Assembly (NCBI GenBank): GCA_951406725.2
Contig: OX597833.1
Span: 44,206,001 to 44,270,000 of the forward strand
Source: Octopus vulgaris
Taxonomy: Eukaryota
Length of the DNA: 64,000 bases
Direction of reading: 5' to 3'
In this document: piece after piece, positions 27,001 to 57,000 of the stretch
Layout of the letters: every line of letters begins with the position of its first letter
How positions within the stretch are numbered: the stretch's first letter is position 1
Made by a program: the position numbers

Positions 27001-30000
27001 GGAAACCGGCCCTTATGAGCCAGGCGTGGCTCGAGAAGGAACAAACAACAACAATTATACTACTATCTCTATGATATTACTGTCATTATTATAATATAAT
27101 TAACAGTTATTATTACAGTTCCTACTATTATTATTACAACAATTATTAATGTGCTTAGAGTGGGTACAATCGTTAGCACGTCTGAACAAATTCTCGGTCA
27201 TGTCGTATGTTCTGAGATCAAATACCACCAAGGTCGACTTTGTCTTTCACCATTTCGATGTCGGTAAAGTAACTATTGATTGAGCACTGGGATCGTTTTA
27301 ATTGTCTAAGCCTCATCCACAAAATGCTTGACATTAGTCCCGTTGTAGAAAGGACCATTACTATCACTGTTAACGTTATTACTATTACTGGTACTACTAC
27401 CAAATCTAACGTCTGATTTACCTTCAATAGCTGTGTTGTTGTCACTTCAGGAAATTGTTCGTGTCTCGCACCTTATGTACCCGTACCTTGAGTCCTGGTC
27501 TATGTGCAGCCTCTGGGCATATACGTTGCAGACATATAAATACTTGTAAATCGTTTGATTTATGGAACGGTGTACATAATCCTACATTGAATCTTGATAT
27601 ATCTAGAAAATCAGCTGATCTCTAATCTGCTTCTATTGTGATTGATAGACCATGATTTCGAAAGAGTTTAAATAATATTTTCCAATACATTTCTACTTCT
27701 GCTACACTACACCTATAAACAGAAAAGAGATTGTCATTCCCCTATATACTTTCACTAACATAGGAAAAACTGATTCTAGTTGGAAAAAGATAGATACAAT
27801 GTACTTGCCTATAGGTGAAAATATGTACGTGTATGTACACATATATATTGCACGCGCACACACAAACAAACACACACACATTCATATAATATGTTTTCAA
27901 TATCAGAAATCAATGAGCCGTAACTGGAGAAAGCACTCAATATATGCTGTTGAATCAAATATTTATTTCCGGAAAATGTGATTTGACTGCGACATGTAAG
28001 TTTTGCAGAAGGGGTTCATCAGTTAGTAACCTGCAAAAAAGGGAAGCGTTTTCAATTTAGAAAGTATGTATGTATTTTTCTTCATCCCGCAAGTCGTCCA
28101 ACAAAACTCTCCTCACCAAGCAAGCCTGGTAGGGTTGCAAGTTTAGTCGCCGACGATTCGACCATGCGACACGTTGTGCTGGATTGCATGTTACCAGTAG
28201 CACTCAAGACCGACCTGTTTAAGCAGAAAAATAAATATAAAACCACCTGGATGCACCCAAGATCTAAGCACTGGCATCTCATAAATTATATTCTGATCAG
28301 GAGAACGTGGTATGAAATACGTTTCTAGCGTTCGTGTCATGAGAGGGGCAGAGAGCTGGACTGACCATCATCTAGTGCGTGGAAAAATTGATTTTTCGAT
28401 AATGCCTAAAAATCGACAGTCTGGTCCTAAAGTATCCAAAATGTTAAATGTTGCAAAATTTAAATTATCAAGCAACTTGCAAAGATTCCACAATACTATA
28501 ATAGAAACAATCTATGGAAGACTTCAAAACAAAATTATTTCAGGCTGCAAATCCGTCAGTGGGATTTAATCTCATAAATCCAGTGACTGGTTCTCAGATC
28601 AGCAGAAATTCATGATCTACTGTCAGAAAAACAAAACTTAGGCAATACACTTCTTTCTCAGTTCTTGAACCCCAACTCAAACGAAACTTACAGAAAGATG
28701 TAAAGGAAGGTGTAGATTGCTCTAAGGAAAATTAAACAGAAATGGTGAAATGCTAGAACAAAAGGGCACAAGGAGCAGCTGATAGAAATGATGCCAAGGG
28801 TTTGTACTTTCATGTTAAGGCGGTATATGGCCCAAAATCTTCTTCAATAGCTCCAGTGAGAACAGAAAATGTTTTTCTTCTGACTGATATCGCTTCTATT
28901 CATAAGCACTGGGTAGAACATTTTTCTGCACTTTTGAATTGACCGTCATCTGCTGACATGAGGACGATAGAAAAAATTGAACATCTTCCAGTTATAGAAG
29001 AGATGGCATTTGAACCAACTCTAAATGACATTTATTTAGCTGTGACTAAGCTAAATAACAATAAGTCTCCAGTGTCTGATGGAATCTGTGCAGAAATCTT
29101 GAAATATGGGGGTGATAAAATGTTTGAACTCTTAAATATATAAATTTGTCACTGTTGGAGAACTGAGAAAGGTCCTCCAGACTGGACTGATGCCATTTTA
29201 GTCTCTTTGTATAAATCGGGTCCAAAGGATCTGTGTGGGAAACTTCGTGGGATTTCGCTTTTGGCTGTGGTTGGAAAGGTACTTGCCCACATTTTGTTAG
29301 AACGTTTAAATACCTTTATAGTTCCAAGTATAGTGTCTGAGTCTCAGTGTGGTTTTCGTTCCTCTAGGGTCACAGCTGATTGTATCTTTACTGTCAGACA
29401 ATTGGAAGCACTCCGTCGGTTACGACGACGAGGGTTCCGGTTGATCCGAATCAACGGAACAGCCTGCTCGTGAAATTAACGTGTAAGTGGCTGAGCACTC
29501 CACAGACACGTGTACCCTTGACGTAGTTCTCGGGGATATTCAGCGTGACACAGAGAGTGACAAGGCCGGCCCTTTGAAATACAAGGTACAACAGAAACAG
29601 GAAGTAAGAGTAAGAGAAAGTTGTGGTGAAAGAGTACAGCAGGGATCACCACCATCCCCTGCCGGAGCCTCGTGGAGCTTTAGGTGTTTTCGCTCAATAA
29701 ACACTCACAACGCCCGGTCTGGGAATCGAAACCGCGATCCTATGACCGCGAGTCCGCTGCCCTAACCACTGGGCCATTGCGCCTCCACTATGTCAGACAA
29801 TTACAAGTGCATTGAACAGAATCTTGATCTATAACATTGCTTTGTTGATTTGAGCAAAGCATTCGATACTGATAATCGAAATGCTCTGTGGTTAATTCTA
29901 AGGAAAATAGGTTGCCCAGAAAAATAAACAAGGTCAGGGCTTTCCATGAAGATATGAAGGCTAGAGTTAATTTTGGTGGTAGGCTCTCTGAATCTTTTTA

Positions 30001-54000: not shown

Positions 54001-57000
54001 CACCATATATCAAAGACTTACATACCATTGGGGAGGCCTATGAGAAAATGATCTTTTCGGTTTGAACGGCAGTTTTAAAAAATAATTTCCACTTAACTAA
54101 ACACTTTTAAACTTCGTTTACTGGTAGAATGTGTGTATAAAACATCTTTTTTTCTTGGCTTTTCTATAGTTTGTAAAATATTTGTTGTTGTTTTTCTTCA
54201 ATTTCTACAATTTCAACCAATCAATGACGTCTATTGAGGTGAAAACATTCTGTGCCGTATGAATATGTCCCTCGTTTAAGAAACAGATTGGGTTTATTTA
54301 CATTTCTGAAGAAAAAAAATATACCCTTCCCCGCACCCCTAACCCCAACCCTAAAACAGATTGAAATGCAATAGATCGATACTAGGGTCATAATTATGGG
54401 TGATAATTTCATATGACACCGCTAGAAAAAATTGCCGTTCAAACCGAAAAGATCCTGAGAAAATTTGGTTTTAATGTTTGACAACTCAGCACCTTCCATT
54501 GGACGGGGGCTGTTTTGCTCGTAATATATAAAGTCAAAGAATATTCTTCATGTGTAATGGATATCCGATGAATGCCTCTTCGAGGAAAACATTATGAACT
54601 ATTAGAAAAATGAAGTAAACTGTGATAATTCTAAATTTACTCAGACAAATAGCGACTGAGCTTTTTGTTCTTCGTTTGAATACTTGCAAACAACATAAAA
54701 CGCATGCACGCTCACACACATGCTACGTACGTACATACATACATACATACATACATACATACATACATACATACATACATACAAACATACATATATACAT
54801 ACAAACAAACATACATACATACATACAAACAAACATACATACATACATACATACATACATACATACATACATACATACATACAAACGTACATGTTGATGC
54901 ATAAGTGTTATATATATTTATATAATGTAGATGTAAAAATTATATAAATATATATGCATATTCTATATTCTCTCTCTCTCTTCTCTCTCTCTCTCTCTCT
55001 CTCTCTCTCTATATATATATATATATATATATATATATTTACATGTACTATGTACATATATATATGTACTATGTTAACAAGGGAAAATACACACATCTAT
55101 TTATATATGTACTATGTATGTATGGTTGCATGTATGTATGTATGTATGTATGTATGTATGTATGTATGTATGTATGTATGTATGTATGTGTATATGTATG
55201 TAGGCATATATAGTGCGTTTTGCGACAATCAAAACATTAAATCTAAAACAAGCAGATTCAGCGTTGGAAATGAAGAAAATAATATTTTTTCTTAGTTTAA
55301 ACTTACATGCGGAAGTGTAAGGAGCAATCATCAGCATCATCATAGCTAACAACATCGTTGATCTTGAGAGACCAGTATAAGGCAGAACTAGAAATAATCG
55401 TCGGATCCCAGACACCATTAATATTACGAAAAGATGTGTCTAATACAAAGAGTGTAGTCGAAACAAAGAGCTTTATATAGAGAGAGATTAGTGATAGCGT
55501 TTACAAAAATAGAAAGGAAAGCGCAATATATGTAAGCGTGAATGAGAGAAAGAGTGAAGCTTGAGTAGAGTTTGAGTGAAGCTGAGATTATTTCATCTGG
55601 CTGTTTGCTTCTCTCGCTCTCTCTCTCCCTTCGTCCCTCTCTCTCTCTCTCTCTCTCTTTCTCTCTTTCTTCCTTTCTTTCTTTCTCTCTCTCTCTCTCT
55701 CTCTCTGTTACTTTCTTTGTGCTTCGAGAAGTCATGTAGATCACATGAAAAACGATTTGACAGAAAGTAATAACCACACACACACACACACACACACACA
55801 CACACACACACACACACACACACACACACACACAAACGCACACGCACGCAAAACGCACACGCACGCACAAACGCACACGCACACACACACCCACACACAC
55901 ACACACACACACATACACACACGTATACATACATACAAACAAAGAGGGAACAGAGACGGCCACTAAGAACGTGTGTGAGGAAAGCGACGACGAAATATAA
56001 AAGTGAAAGTGAGAAAGGGAGATAAGAAGACAAATAAATGCTAGAATGAAAGAGTATAAAAAACTCCATGAGAAAGAGAGAAAAGATAGACAAAGACAGA
56101 GGGAAAGAGGAAGAGGTAGAGAAACGGTAAAAGCATTTTCGTTTTTTTAATACAGTTAGTTTATAATTTTCCTAATAGATTTTCCAATACGGCACTCAAC
56201 GGGGGGGGGGGGGGCTGATTGGAGAGGCTGCCTTAACTTCCCGGTATTTTTTCAAACTTAAGGCGGCGAGCGGGGAGAAACGTTAGCACGCCGGGCGAAA
56301 TGCTCACCGGTATTTCGTCTGCCGCTACGTTGTGAGTTCAAATTCCGCCGAGGTCGACTTTGCCTTTCATCCTTTCGGGGTCGATACATTAAGTACCAGT
56401 TACGCACTGGAGTCGATGTAATCGACTTAATACCTATGTCTGTCCTAGTTTGTCCCCTCTGTGTTTAGCCCCTTGTGGGTAATAAAGAAATAGGTATTTC
56501 GTCTGCCGCTAGGTTCTGAGTTCAAATTCCGCCGAGGTCGACTTTACCCTTCATCCTTTCGGGGTCGATTAAATAAGTACCAGTTACGCACTGGGGTCGA
56601 TGAAATTGACTTAATCTGTTTGTCTGTCCTTGTTTGTCCTCTCTGTGTTTAACCCCTTGTGGGTAGTAAAGAAATAGGTATTTCGTCTGCCGCTACGTTC
56701 TGAATTCAAATTCCGCCGAGGTCGACTTTAACTTTCATCCTTTCGGGGTCGATTAAATAAGTACCAGTTACGCACTGGGGTCGATGTAATTGACTTAATC
56801 TGTTTGTCTGTCCTTGTTTATCCCCTCTGTGTTTAACCCCTTGTGGGAAGTAAAGAACTAGGTATTTTCCCAACTTAGTTGATTCACGTTAAAGTGAGTT
56901 GTTAGGGAAGGGAGAGGTGATGGGTTTATTAGGGTTATATCTTGTTCAGGCTCCCACCTTATTTCAGGGTCACCCTGGCAGTTGAGAGAAAGTGGTGTCT

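What the first reader, a model, noticed from the sequence alone, without database searches (positions are those of the whole stretch)
27950..55480. Hidden spliced gene for a 286-aa signal peptide-Ig-Ig-GPI-like surface protein
Seen: five exons (112+324+306+39+80 = 861 nt), all GT-AG and all phase 1, join into one stop-free frame. Known: one domain per exon with phase-1 introns is the classic IgSF layout. Inferred: a GPI-anchored two-Ig receptor that I cannot assign to any named family. No single ORF in the track shows it.
Basis: partly seen in the sequence, partly recalled or inferred. Interest (0 to 1): 0.85.

Follow-up and report, generated by a model that had tools for sequence, protein, structure and literature searches.

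The report
Annotated octopus two-Ig-domain surface protein gene
The five-exon gene is real and encodes a small surface protein with two antibody-like domains, but the identical protein is already in the public Octopus vulgaris annotation, so this is an ordinary, uncharacterised gene, not a hidden one.

Summary
On the minus strand, five exons (55307-55418, 41177-41500, 39042-39347, 34635-34673, 30143-30222) total 861 nt. All introns are GT-AG and phase 1, and no stop occurs before the last codon.

Each exon's peptide is an exact substring of the public 286-aa record CAI9737735.1, "Hypothetical predicted protein [Octopus vulgaris]". The closest Octopus bimaculoides relative is LOC106880715 isoform X4. 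UniRef calls it "Ig-like domain-containing protein", and it has the same five-part layout.

Pfam finds nothing. Each domain exon still folds with high confidence into a beta-sandwich (pLDDT 90.7 and 93.7). Exon 2 resembles antibody, nanobody and TCR V domains. Exon 3 resembles constant-type Ig domains and keeps an invariant Cys-Trp-Cys triad.

The gene belongs to a tandem family. Every named member I checked comes from an octopod. The GPI anchor is plausible but was not tested.

Interest is low: correct reading, already annotated.

The parts
55307..55418 (-). Exon 1, coding part (112 nt): ATG at 55418-55416, a second in-frame ATG at 55355-55353 (Met22), a hydrophobic Met-rich signal-like stretch at 55308-55355, and a GTAAGT donor
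   Evidence: The 37-aa peptide equals residues 1-37 of P0003. The O. bimaculoides X4 protein starts at the position equivalent to Met22, 11/16 identical.
41177..41500 (-). Exon 2 (324 nt, phase 1-1): Ig V-like domain 1
   Evidence: AF2 pLDDT 90.7, pTM 0.83. Foldseek PDB top hits are nanobody, Fab V, TCR V, sodium-channel beta-subunit and NCAM d1 chains, TMq 0.46-0.64, E >= 4.2e-3. 68/107 identical to O. bimaculoides X4.
39042..39347 (-). Exon 3 (306 nt, phase 1-1): constant-type (C2-like) Ig domain 2 with Cys24, Trp39 and Cys86
   Evidence: AF2 pLDDT 93.7, pTM 0.84. Foldseek gives mixed Ig C-type, FN3 and other beta-sandwich hits. ESM Atlas scores 0.93 to C2-set_2/C1-set/ig clusters. Cys, Trp and Cys are invariant in 27/27 rows.
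34635..34673 (-). Exon 4 (39 nt, phase 1-1): polar linker ending in small residues (candidate GPI attachment region)
   Evidence: Its 12-aa peptide is in P0003 at position 249 and is 7/12 identical to O. bimaculoides X4.
30143..30222 (-). Exon 5, coding part (80 nt including TAA): moderately hydrophobic C-terminal tail
   Evidence: 22/25 identical to O. bimaculoides X4. Highest 15-residue Kyte-Doolittle mean is 1.69, with 4 residues after that stretch.
41501..55306 (-). Intron 1 (13.8 kb), mostly retrotransposon sequence lying antisense to the gene
   Evidence: RVT_1 at 47763-48716(+), E 4.7e-31; zf-RVT at 49105-49725(+). Positions 45824-54455 are repeated in inverted orientation at 12254-19606.

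Best explanation
This is a genuine five-exon protein-coding gene of Octopus vulgaris (or a near-identical genome), already annotated as CAI9737735.1. It has the classic IgSF layout, with each part on its own exon and every intron in phase 1. The parts are: a signal peptide exon; an exon for a V-like Ig domain; an exon for a constant-type (C2-like) Ig domain; a 13-residue polar linker; and a short hydrophobic C-terminal tail. The most likely mechanism is as follows (inferred). The protein enters the secretory pathway and is cleaved after the ...T-S-A that ends exon 1. It is N-glycosylated; I read four N-x-S/T sequons in the exon 2-3 peptides. The C-terminal tail is then exchanged for a GPI lipid anchor near the small residues that end the linker. 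On the outer cell surface the protein would act as a small adhesion or recognition molecule through its membrane-distal V-like domain. It is one member of a tandemly duplicated, fast-diverging family so far seen only in octopods. Other members carry a more hydrophobic GPI-like tail, a true transmembrane helix with a cytoplasmic tail, or mucin-like stalks. Shown here: gene structure, identity to the public model, family membership and the two Ig-like folds. Inferred only: signal cleavage, glycosylation, GPI anchoring and ligand-binding function.
For: Structure: (GT-AG, phase 1, open frame). Public model: all five exon peptides are exact substrings of P0003 = CAI9737735.1. Independent model in another species: O. 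bimaculoides XP_014786282.1 (P0004) has the same order of signal, D1, D2, linker and tail. Per-exon identities are 11/16, 68/107, 64/99, 7/12 and 22/25. It is sister to the O. vulgaris + O. sinensis pair in the tree with support 99/98. Family: phmmer with the public O. bimaculoides protein P0002 against 1.84 billion representatives gave 43 proteins at E<=1e-3, 32 at E<=1e-10 and 11 at E<=1e-30. I name-checked 22 query proteins (2 + 10 + 10). Twenty are from O. vulgaris, O. sinensis, O. bimaculoides or Argonauta hians. Two (P0040, P0041) are unnamed ENA records that look like repeat artefacts. O. vulgaris accessions CAI9737731, -32, -33, -34, -35, -36 and -38 are all family members, which indicates a tandem cluster. 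Exons of three of them lie in this window. Folds. The family profile gives marginal PDB hits (E 0.008-0.7), of which 59 of the 60 listed are IgSF chains (Fab light chains, Fc-gamma receptor II, CD22, titin, TCR alpha); the exception is an endoglucanase. Motifs: D2 has Cys24, Trp39 and Cys86 in 27/27 rows; D1 has D88 and Y92 in 27/27 and Cys94 in 26/27. Tail: a hydrophobic stretch ending 4 residues before the C-terminus. Relatives have tails with a 15-residue hydropathy mean of 2.9-3.5 ending 2 residues before the end. Others, such as P0026 and P0038, have a transmembrane segment plus a cytoplasmic tail.
Against: No transcript evidence was available here, so the junctions rest on gene models and homology. 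Pfam gives 0 families at E<=10 for the exons, for the whole public proteins and for the paralogous exon. No Foldseek hit reaches E<=1e-3 for either domain. The domain 2 hits include non-Ig sandwiches such as ApaG, TRAP, Asf1, PDE-delta and glycosidase accessory domains. ESM Atlas was uninformative for domain 1 (best score 0.88, amidoligase clusters). In this gene the F-strand cysteine of domain 1 is Phe. It is the only one of 27 rows without Cys; O. sinensis P0001 also has Phe. The canonical disulfide of domain 1 therefore cannot form. The tail is the least hydrophobic of its group (1.69, against 1.84-2.52 for the others with the same tail type). It contains a Lys and is more conserved (22/25) than the domains, which is unusual for a signal that gets cleaved off. 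The O. sinensis RefSeq model (P0001, 185 aa) lacks exon 1. It also reads the 39-nt exon in another frame, stops inside it and so has no tail. The O. bimaculoides X5 model lacks the signal exon.
Confidence: 0.7

Rival explanations
1. Same gene and ectodomain, but the C-terminal segment is a permanent membrane anchor (a type I protein with almost no cytoplasmic tail), not a GPI signal. The conserved lysine inside the segment could pair with a signalling partner, as in vertebrate activating receptors (that analogy is recalled, not tested).
For: The tail exon is the best-conserved part of the protein (22/25 to O. bimaculoides, against 68/107 and 64/99 for the domains). Its sequence pattern recurs across paralogues, including a fixed Lys. 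The family does contain true transmembrane members (P0026, P0038).
Against: The hydrophobic run is only about 15 residues and weakly hydrophobic (1.69). Only 4 residues follow it. Small residues sit about 8-10 positions upstream, as expected for a GPI attachment site (by inspection). High conservation could also come from recent duplication or gene conversion: the tail exon has a 100%-identical inverted copy at 21772-21849.
Confidence: 0.2
2. The locus is a decaying or non-functional paralogue. Its open frame is still intact, and it was modelled mainly from protein alignment and ab initio prediction.
For: It has lost the otherwise near-invariant F-strand Cys of domain 1 (1 of 27 rows). It sits in a rearranged, retrotransposon-filled region next to an inverted partial duplicate and an orphan domain exon. 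I saw no transcript evidence. The O. vulgaris annotation pipeline used aligned O. bimaculoides proteins and ab initio predictors as well as transcripts (PMC10700109, passages read). I only infer that the CAI record comes from that annotation.
Against: All 286 codons are open and all eight splice sites are canonical. The polypyrimidine tracts look good. The Phe substitution is shared with O. sinensis, although those species are too close for this to prove constraint.
Confidence: 0.1
3. The five pieces are a chance concatenation of open frames and not a gene.
For: Other open AG..GT segments of the same lengths exist in the region.
Against: Exact identity to a public protein. E-values of 1e-41 to 1e-45 to another species' protein for exons 2 and 3. 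A 43-member family. High-confidence folds.
Confidence: 0.01

Closest known systems
CAI9737735.1 / UniRef100_A0AA36FGJ0, 'Hypothetical predicted protein [Octopus vulgaris]', 286 aa (P0003)
   Same: All five exon peptides of the window are exact substrings at positions 1, 39, 147, 249 and 262. The four single residues in between equal the split codons.
   Different: Nothing detectable. The record carries no function or domain name.
Octopus bimaculoides LOC106880715 isoform X4, XP_014786282.1 (P0004), UniRef name 'Ig-like domain-containing protein'. Also O. sinensis LOC118766815, XP_036366491.1 (P0001)
   Same: Same domain order. P0004 is the sister of the vulgaris/sinensis pair (99/98). P0001 is 70/71 and 100/101 identical over exons 2 and 3.
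   Different: P0004 starts at the equivalent of Met22 and keeps the F-strand Cys in domain 1. It is only 64-65% identical in the domains. P0001 lacks exon 1 and ends in a frame-shifted reading of the 39-nt exon.
Small V + C2 two-domain IgSF surface proteins of vertebrates: the CD2 family, with GPI-linked CD48 and CD58, and B7/CD80-like ectodomains (family properties recalled from knowledge)
   Same: Signal peptide, a membrane-distal V-like domain, a membrane-proximal C2-like domain and a short stalk, with lipid or transmembrane anchoring that varies within one family. One domain per exon with phase-1 introns. For domain 2, ESM Atlas look-alike clusters carry C2-set_2 ('CD80-like') in 81-96% of members.
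   Different: No significant sequence similarity: Pfam gives 0 hits, and PDB phmmer gives E>=0.1 for D1 and no hit for D2. Domain 1 has three extra invariant cysteines (Cys67, 79, 86) and no C-strand Trp. No functional data exist.
Lineage-specific multigene families of small IgSF surface proteins in invertebrates, such as Drosophila Dpr/DIP/Beat and amphioxus VCBPs (recalled)
   Same: Two or three Ig domains, large tandem families, and lipid or membrane anchoring in some members.
   Different: No sequence link was tested or found. Binding partners and expression are unknown here.

Membership tests
Immunoglobulin superfamily (Ig-like domain) | Seven-to-nine-strand beta-sandwich superimposable on solved Ig domains | tested here: met
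   D1: 8 strands, pLDDT 90.7. All listed Foldseek PDB hits are entries with antibody, nanobody or TCR V chains or IgSF proteins, TMq 0.46-0.64. D2: 7 strands, pLDDT 93.7. Hits include MHC-like alpha3, HLA-DM, beta2-microglobulin, TCR and VCAM-1, but also non-Ig sandwiches. No hit reaches E<=1e-3 for either domain.
Immunoglobulin superfamily (Ig-like domain) | B-strand Cys, C-strand Trp and F-strand Cys (inter-sheet disulfide) | tested here: inconclusive
   D2: Cys24, Trp39 and Cys86 present, invariant in 27/27 rows. D1: Cys24 present, but position 94 is Phe where 26/27 rows have Cys, and the C-strand position is Leu (21/27), not Trp. So the feature is met in domain 2 and not met in this gene's domain 1.
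Immunoglobulin superfamily (Ig-like domain) | Significant match to a Pfam Ig-clan model (V-set, I-set, ig, Ig_2/3, C1-set, C2-set_2) | tested here: not met
   0 families at E<=10 for exons 1-3, and 0 for P0003, P0004 and the paralogous exon. Indirect support only: UniRef's automatic name for relatives, ESM Atlas 0.93 to C2-set_2/C1-set clusters for D2, and marginal PDB profile hits.
Immunoglobulin superfamily (Ig-like domain) | One domain per exon, bounded by phase-1 introns | tested here: met
   Exons 2 and 3 are both phase 1-1. The paralogous exon 24882-25187(+) has the same 306-nt length and phase.
GPI-anchored proteins | Cleavable N-terminal signal peptide | tested here: inconclusive
   A hydrophobic Met/Leu-rich stretch followed by T-S-A. 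Highest 10-residue hydropathy mean is 2.72. No SignalP-type predictor was available. It is not settled whether translation starts at Met1 or Met22.
GPI-anchored proteins | C-terminal signal: small attachment-site residues, a polar spacer, then a hydrophobic stretch running to the C-terminus | tested here: inconclusive
   The layout is present by inspection. Hydropathy is only 1.69 over 15 residues, with 4 residues after the stretch. No GPI predictor was available.
GPI-anchored proteins | Release from the membrane by PI-specific phospholipase C, or a lipid-linked C-terminus | not testable with these tools
   Needs an experiment.
Unnamed octopod two-Ig-domain family (LOC106880715-like) | Significant full-length sequence similarity and shared invariant residues | tested here: met
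   tblastn E 7e-45 and 7e-41 for exons 2 and 3 against P0004. D1 residues F65, C67, C79, K81, C86, D88 and Y92 and D2 residues C24, W39 and C86 are all present.

The most novel reading that the evidence does not exclude
The gene may be one unit of an octopod-restricted, tandemly amplified V + C2 IgSF repertoire. In it the ectodomains diverge quickly (64-65% identity between the nearest O. vulgaris and O. bimaculoides members) while the signal and anchor exons stay conserved (up to 22/25). The anchors are also swapped between a GPI-like tail, a transmembrane helix with cytoplasmic tail, and mucin stalks. That is the signature expected of a lineage-specific recognition-receptor system, whether immune, self/non-self or neuronal wiring. 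No paper in the searched library mentions its accessions.
Probability: 0.2. Interest if true: 0.55.

Novelty: already known. Interest (0 to 1): 0.2.

Why it matters
As a gene call it adds nothing, because the same 286-aa model is already deposited. Its modest value lies in the description. The window's exons fold, one by one, into a V-like and a C2-like Ig domain that Pfam does not recognise. They belong to a clustered family of at least 43 sequence clusters that has only automatic names. If expression data later tied this family to haemocytes, suckers or neurons, it would become a candidate lineage-specific recognition repertoire in cephalopods.

Tried and rejected
1. Pfam on exons 1-3, on the public proteins P0003 and P0004, and on the paralogous exon: 0 families at E<=10.

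2. Word-indexed protein search with exon 2, 'longer' setting: 33 candidates, none at E<=0.01. Relatives do exist, so this is a sensitivity and length-window miss (P0001 is 185 aa, below the 189-aa floor).

3. The same tool with alignment A2, 'longer' setting: only proteins of 736-2100 aa were searched and none passed. This was a wasted search and says nothing about relatives.

4. ESM Atlas for domain 1: best score 0.88 to unrelated clusters, uninformative.

5. PDB sequence search with single exons. Exon 2 gave 6 hits, all at E>=0.1, of which 4 are TCR V-alpha chains. Exon 3 gave 0 hits.

6. Other candidates for the short exons were set aside because no relative matches them: 20 other 39-nt and 9 other 80-nt open AG-flanked segments, e.g. 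28191-28270 and 30037-30116.

7. A second signal-peptide exon nearer to exon 2: a pattern scan of all six frames found only 55308-55355(-).

8. Partner exons for the orphan domain exon at 24882-25187(+): none found.

9. Literature. Searches by 12 locus, protein and UniProt identifiers returned 0 papers. Two topical searches (listings only) showed no paper on this family.

10. Not done. Only single exons and public database proteins were used. No complex prediction was run, because no binding claim is made. Presence of the family in squid, cuttlefish or other mollusc genomes therefore stayed unchecked at the DNA level.

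
Full report
WHAT IS THERE. The window is AT-rich eukaryotic DNA (34-46% GC). A mechanical scan for open, AG/GT-flanked segments of the stated lengths places the model on the minus strand:
- exon 1: 55307-55418
- exon 2: 41177-41500
- exon 3: 39042-39347
- exon 4: 34635-34673
- exon 5 (coding part): 30143-30222

One search confirms the arithmetic and the grammar. The sum is 112+324+306+39+80 = 861 nt. The four introns (13806, 1829, 4368 and 4412 nt) are all GT-AG and all in phase 1. There is no internal stop, no split codon is a stop, and a TAA ends the frame. The acceptors have good pyrimidine tracts, and three donors read GTAAG or GTATA.

Length and openness alone are not beyond chance for the short exons. 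Between 27000 and 39041 on this strand there are 21 open 39-nt and 10 open 80-nt candidates. Homology picks out the right ones.

IT IS ALREADY ANNOTATED. Searching exon 3 on its own found O. sinensis LOC118766815 (99% identity) and O. bimaculoides LOC106880715 isoform X5 (63%). The cluster look-up then showed a 286-aa member, CAI9737735.1, "Hypothetical predicted protein [Octopus vulgaris]". All five exon peptides of the window are exact substrings of it, at positions 1, 39, 147, 249 and 262. The four residues in between equal the split codons.

The chromosome-level O. vulgaris genome paper (PMC10700109; passages read) describes an annotation that combined Iso-Seq, RNA-seq, aligned O. bimaculoides proteins and ab initio predictors. 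I infer, but did not verify, that the CAI record comes from that annotation. I could not see which kind of evidence supports this particular model.

The joined-model step was left out. Where a full-length query was useful I used public database proteins.

SUPPORT FROM OTHER SPECIES. O. bimaculoides isoform X4 (XP_014786282.1, 265 aa) has the same five parts in the same order. Per-exon identities to it are 11/16 (signal), 68/107 (domain 1), 64/99 (domain 2), 7/12 (linker) and 22/25 (tail). In a maximum-likelihood tree of 21 family proteins it is sister to the O. vulgaris + O. sinensis pair (support 99/98).

It starts at the equivalent of the window's second Met (Met22, ATG at 55355-55353). The true start may therefore be Met22, which would give a classical 16-residue signal peptide, and not Met1. 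By inspection, Met22 has A at -3 and Met1 has T. The signal-like pattern occurs only once in all six frames of the window and is followed directly by the phase-1 donor. This supports the exon 1 to exon 2 link across the 13.8-kb intron.

Two other public models disagree in detail. The O. sinensis RefSeq protein lacks exon 1, reads the 39-nt exon in another frame and stops inside it. O. bimaculoides X5 lacks the signal exon.

THE FAMILY. phmmer with the public O. bimaculoides X5 protein against 1.84 billion cluster representatives gave 43 proteins at E<=1e-3, 32 at E<=1e-10 and 11 at E<=1e-30. I name-checked 22 query proteins. Twenty are from O. vulgaris, O. sinensis, O. bimaculoides or Argonauta hians. 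Two are unnamed ENA records that look like repeat artefacts, and I dropped them.

O. vulgaris accessions CAI9737731, -32, -33, -34, -35, -36 and -38 are all members, which points to a tandem cluster. Members differ at the C-terminus:
- the tail type seen in this gene;
- a more hydrophobic tail ending two residues before the C-terminus;
- a transmembrane helix with a cytoplasmic tail (P0026, P0038);
- Thr/Pro-rich mucin-like stalks, including a 1202-aa protein with five repeats of the two-domain unit (P0005).

ARE THE DOMAINS Ig? By Pfam they are not: 0 families at E<=10 for the exons, the whole public proteins and the paralogous exon. By fold they are.

Exon 2, folded alone with a 27-row family alignment, gives an eight-strand all-beta model (pLDDT 90.7, pTM 0.83). 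Its listed Foldseek PDB neighbours are entries containing nanobody, Fab V or TCR V chains, PD-1, a sodium-channel beta subunit and NCAM domain 1 (TMq 0.46-0.64, best E 4.2e-3).

Exon 3 gives a seven-strand model (pLDDT 93.7, pTM 0.84). Its neighbours are a mixture. They include constant-type Ig domains (MHC-like alpha3, HLA-DM, beta2-microglobulin, TCR, VCAM-1), FN3 domains and unrelated sandwiches (best E 2.5e-3). The tight hairpin between the third and fourth strands (residues 43 to 46) suggests a C-C' hairpin and hence a C2-type topology; this is my inference. ESM Atlas puts exon 3 at 0.93 next to clusters carrying C2-set_2 ('CD80-like'), C1-set and ig, with 175-184 of 256 shared features. 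For exon 2 the Atlas was uninformative.

A family profile gives only marginal PDB hits (E 0.008-0.7), but 59 of the 60 listed are IgSF chains. V domains align to domain 1 and light-chain constant domains or Fc-gamma receptor II to domain 2.

The motifs agree. Domain 2 has Cys24, Trp39 and Cys86 in 27/27 rows. Domain 1 has D88-x-x-x-Y92-x-C94, with D and Y in 27/27 rows and Cys in 26/27, plus three further invariant cysteines at 67, 79 and 86. The one row without Cys94 is this gene, which has Phe, as does its O. sinensis counterpart. Its domain 1 therefore cannot form the canonical disulfide and is left with an odd number of cysteines.

THE ANCHOR. The last exon encodes a roughly 15-residue, weakly hydrophobic stretch (Kyte-Doolittle mean 1.69) that ends four residues before the C-terminus. 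The linker ends in small residues about 8-10 positions upstream of that stretch. This fits a GPI signal, and relatives have more textbook versions. The tail is, however, the best-conserved exon and contains a fixed Lys. A permanent anchor therefore remains a live rival. No GPI or signal-peptide predictor was available.

SURROUNDINGS. The introns are mostly retrotransposon sequence: RVT_1 at 47763-48716(+), zf-RVT at 49105-49725(+) and RVT_1 at 29144-29470(+).

Much of intron 1 and the region around exon 5 is repeated in inverted orientation to the left of the gene. Positions 12254-19606 match 54455-45824 at 80-97% identity, 19942-22001 match 31650-29996 at 94-98%, and 23978-24533 match 29403-28848 at 96%. 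The duplicate includes a 100%-identical copy of the tail exon at 21772-21849(+). Exons 1-4 are not duplicated.

Between the two arms lies an intact 306-nt, phase 1-1 domain 2 exon on the plus strand (24882-25187). It is 40% identical to exon 3 and part of it is used in model CAI9737734.1. Terminal exons of two neighbouring family genes also lie in the window (3370-3447(+) and 59989-60210(-)).

VERDICT. Nothing about it departs from a small V + C2 IgSF surface protein, apart from its sequence divergence and the lost cysteine. Nothing in the window or in the fetched records was taken for human.

Noticed in passing
window 12254-24533 (+) versus 54455-28848 (-): A large inverted partial duplicate of the gene's non-coding parts, at 80-98% nt identity in collinear blocks. 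It carries a 100%-aa copy of the tail exon at 21772-21849(+) but lacks exons 1-4. The 14-kb stretch 31650-45824 that holds exons 2-4 has no counterpart on the left. I cannot tell from the window whether this is a real segmental inversion-duplication or an assembly artefact.
   Followed up: partly
window 24882-25187 (+): An intact 306-nt, AG/GT-flanked, phase 1-1 exon for a paralogous domain 2. It is 40% identical to exon 3, 83% to P0014, and 96% over 51 aa to P0017 = CAI9737734.1. It keeps the Cys/Trp/Cys triad. No domain 1, linker or tail exon of its own was found nearby on that strand.
   Followed up: partly
window 1953-1985 (+), 3370-3447 (+) and 59989-60210 (-): Terminal exons of neighbouring family genes. 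A linker-like exon and a tail exon 100% identical to P0015 = CAI9737733.1 lie on the plus strand. The C-terminal part of P0049 = CAI9737736.1 lies on the minus strand at 92% identity. So the window sits inside a tandem/inverted cluster.
   Followed up: partly
window 41219-41221 (-), codon 94 of the exon 2 peptide: Phe replaces the F-strand Cys that 26 of 27 aligned family rows have. The O. sinensis protein shares the Phe, while O. bimaculoides keeps Cys.
   Followed up: partly
window 34635-34673 (-): The O. sinensis RefSeq model reads this 39-nt exon in a different frame and terminates inside it, so it has no hydrophobic tail (one search compared). This may reflect either a real difference in acceptor use or a modelling artefact.
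   Followed up: no
window 39007-39041 (-) and several family models (P0013, P0019, P0024, P0042, P0045): Reading through the domain 2 donor into the intron gives a short hydrophobic ending (G-K-Q/L-x-F-F...). Several database models end this way. These are probably unspliced prediction artefacts caused by the conserved donor and the T-rich start of the intron.
   Followed up: no
window 36022-37569 (+), inside intron 3: Two long open frames (242 and 180 aa), Cys/His-rich at the start, with no Pfam match at E<=1e-3. They look like an unclassified mobile-element protein.
   Followed up: partly
window 7165-9533 (-) and 47763-49725 (+): Non-LTR retrotransposon ORFs: an endonuclease (Exo_endo_phos_2) plus RVT_1 on the left, and RVT_1 plus zf-RVT inside intron 1.
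   Followed up: yes
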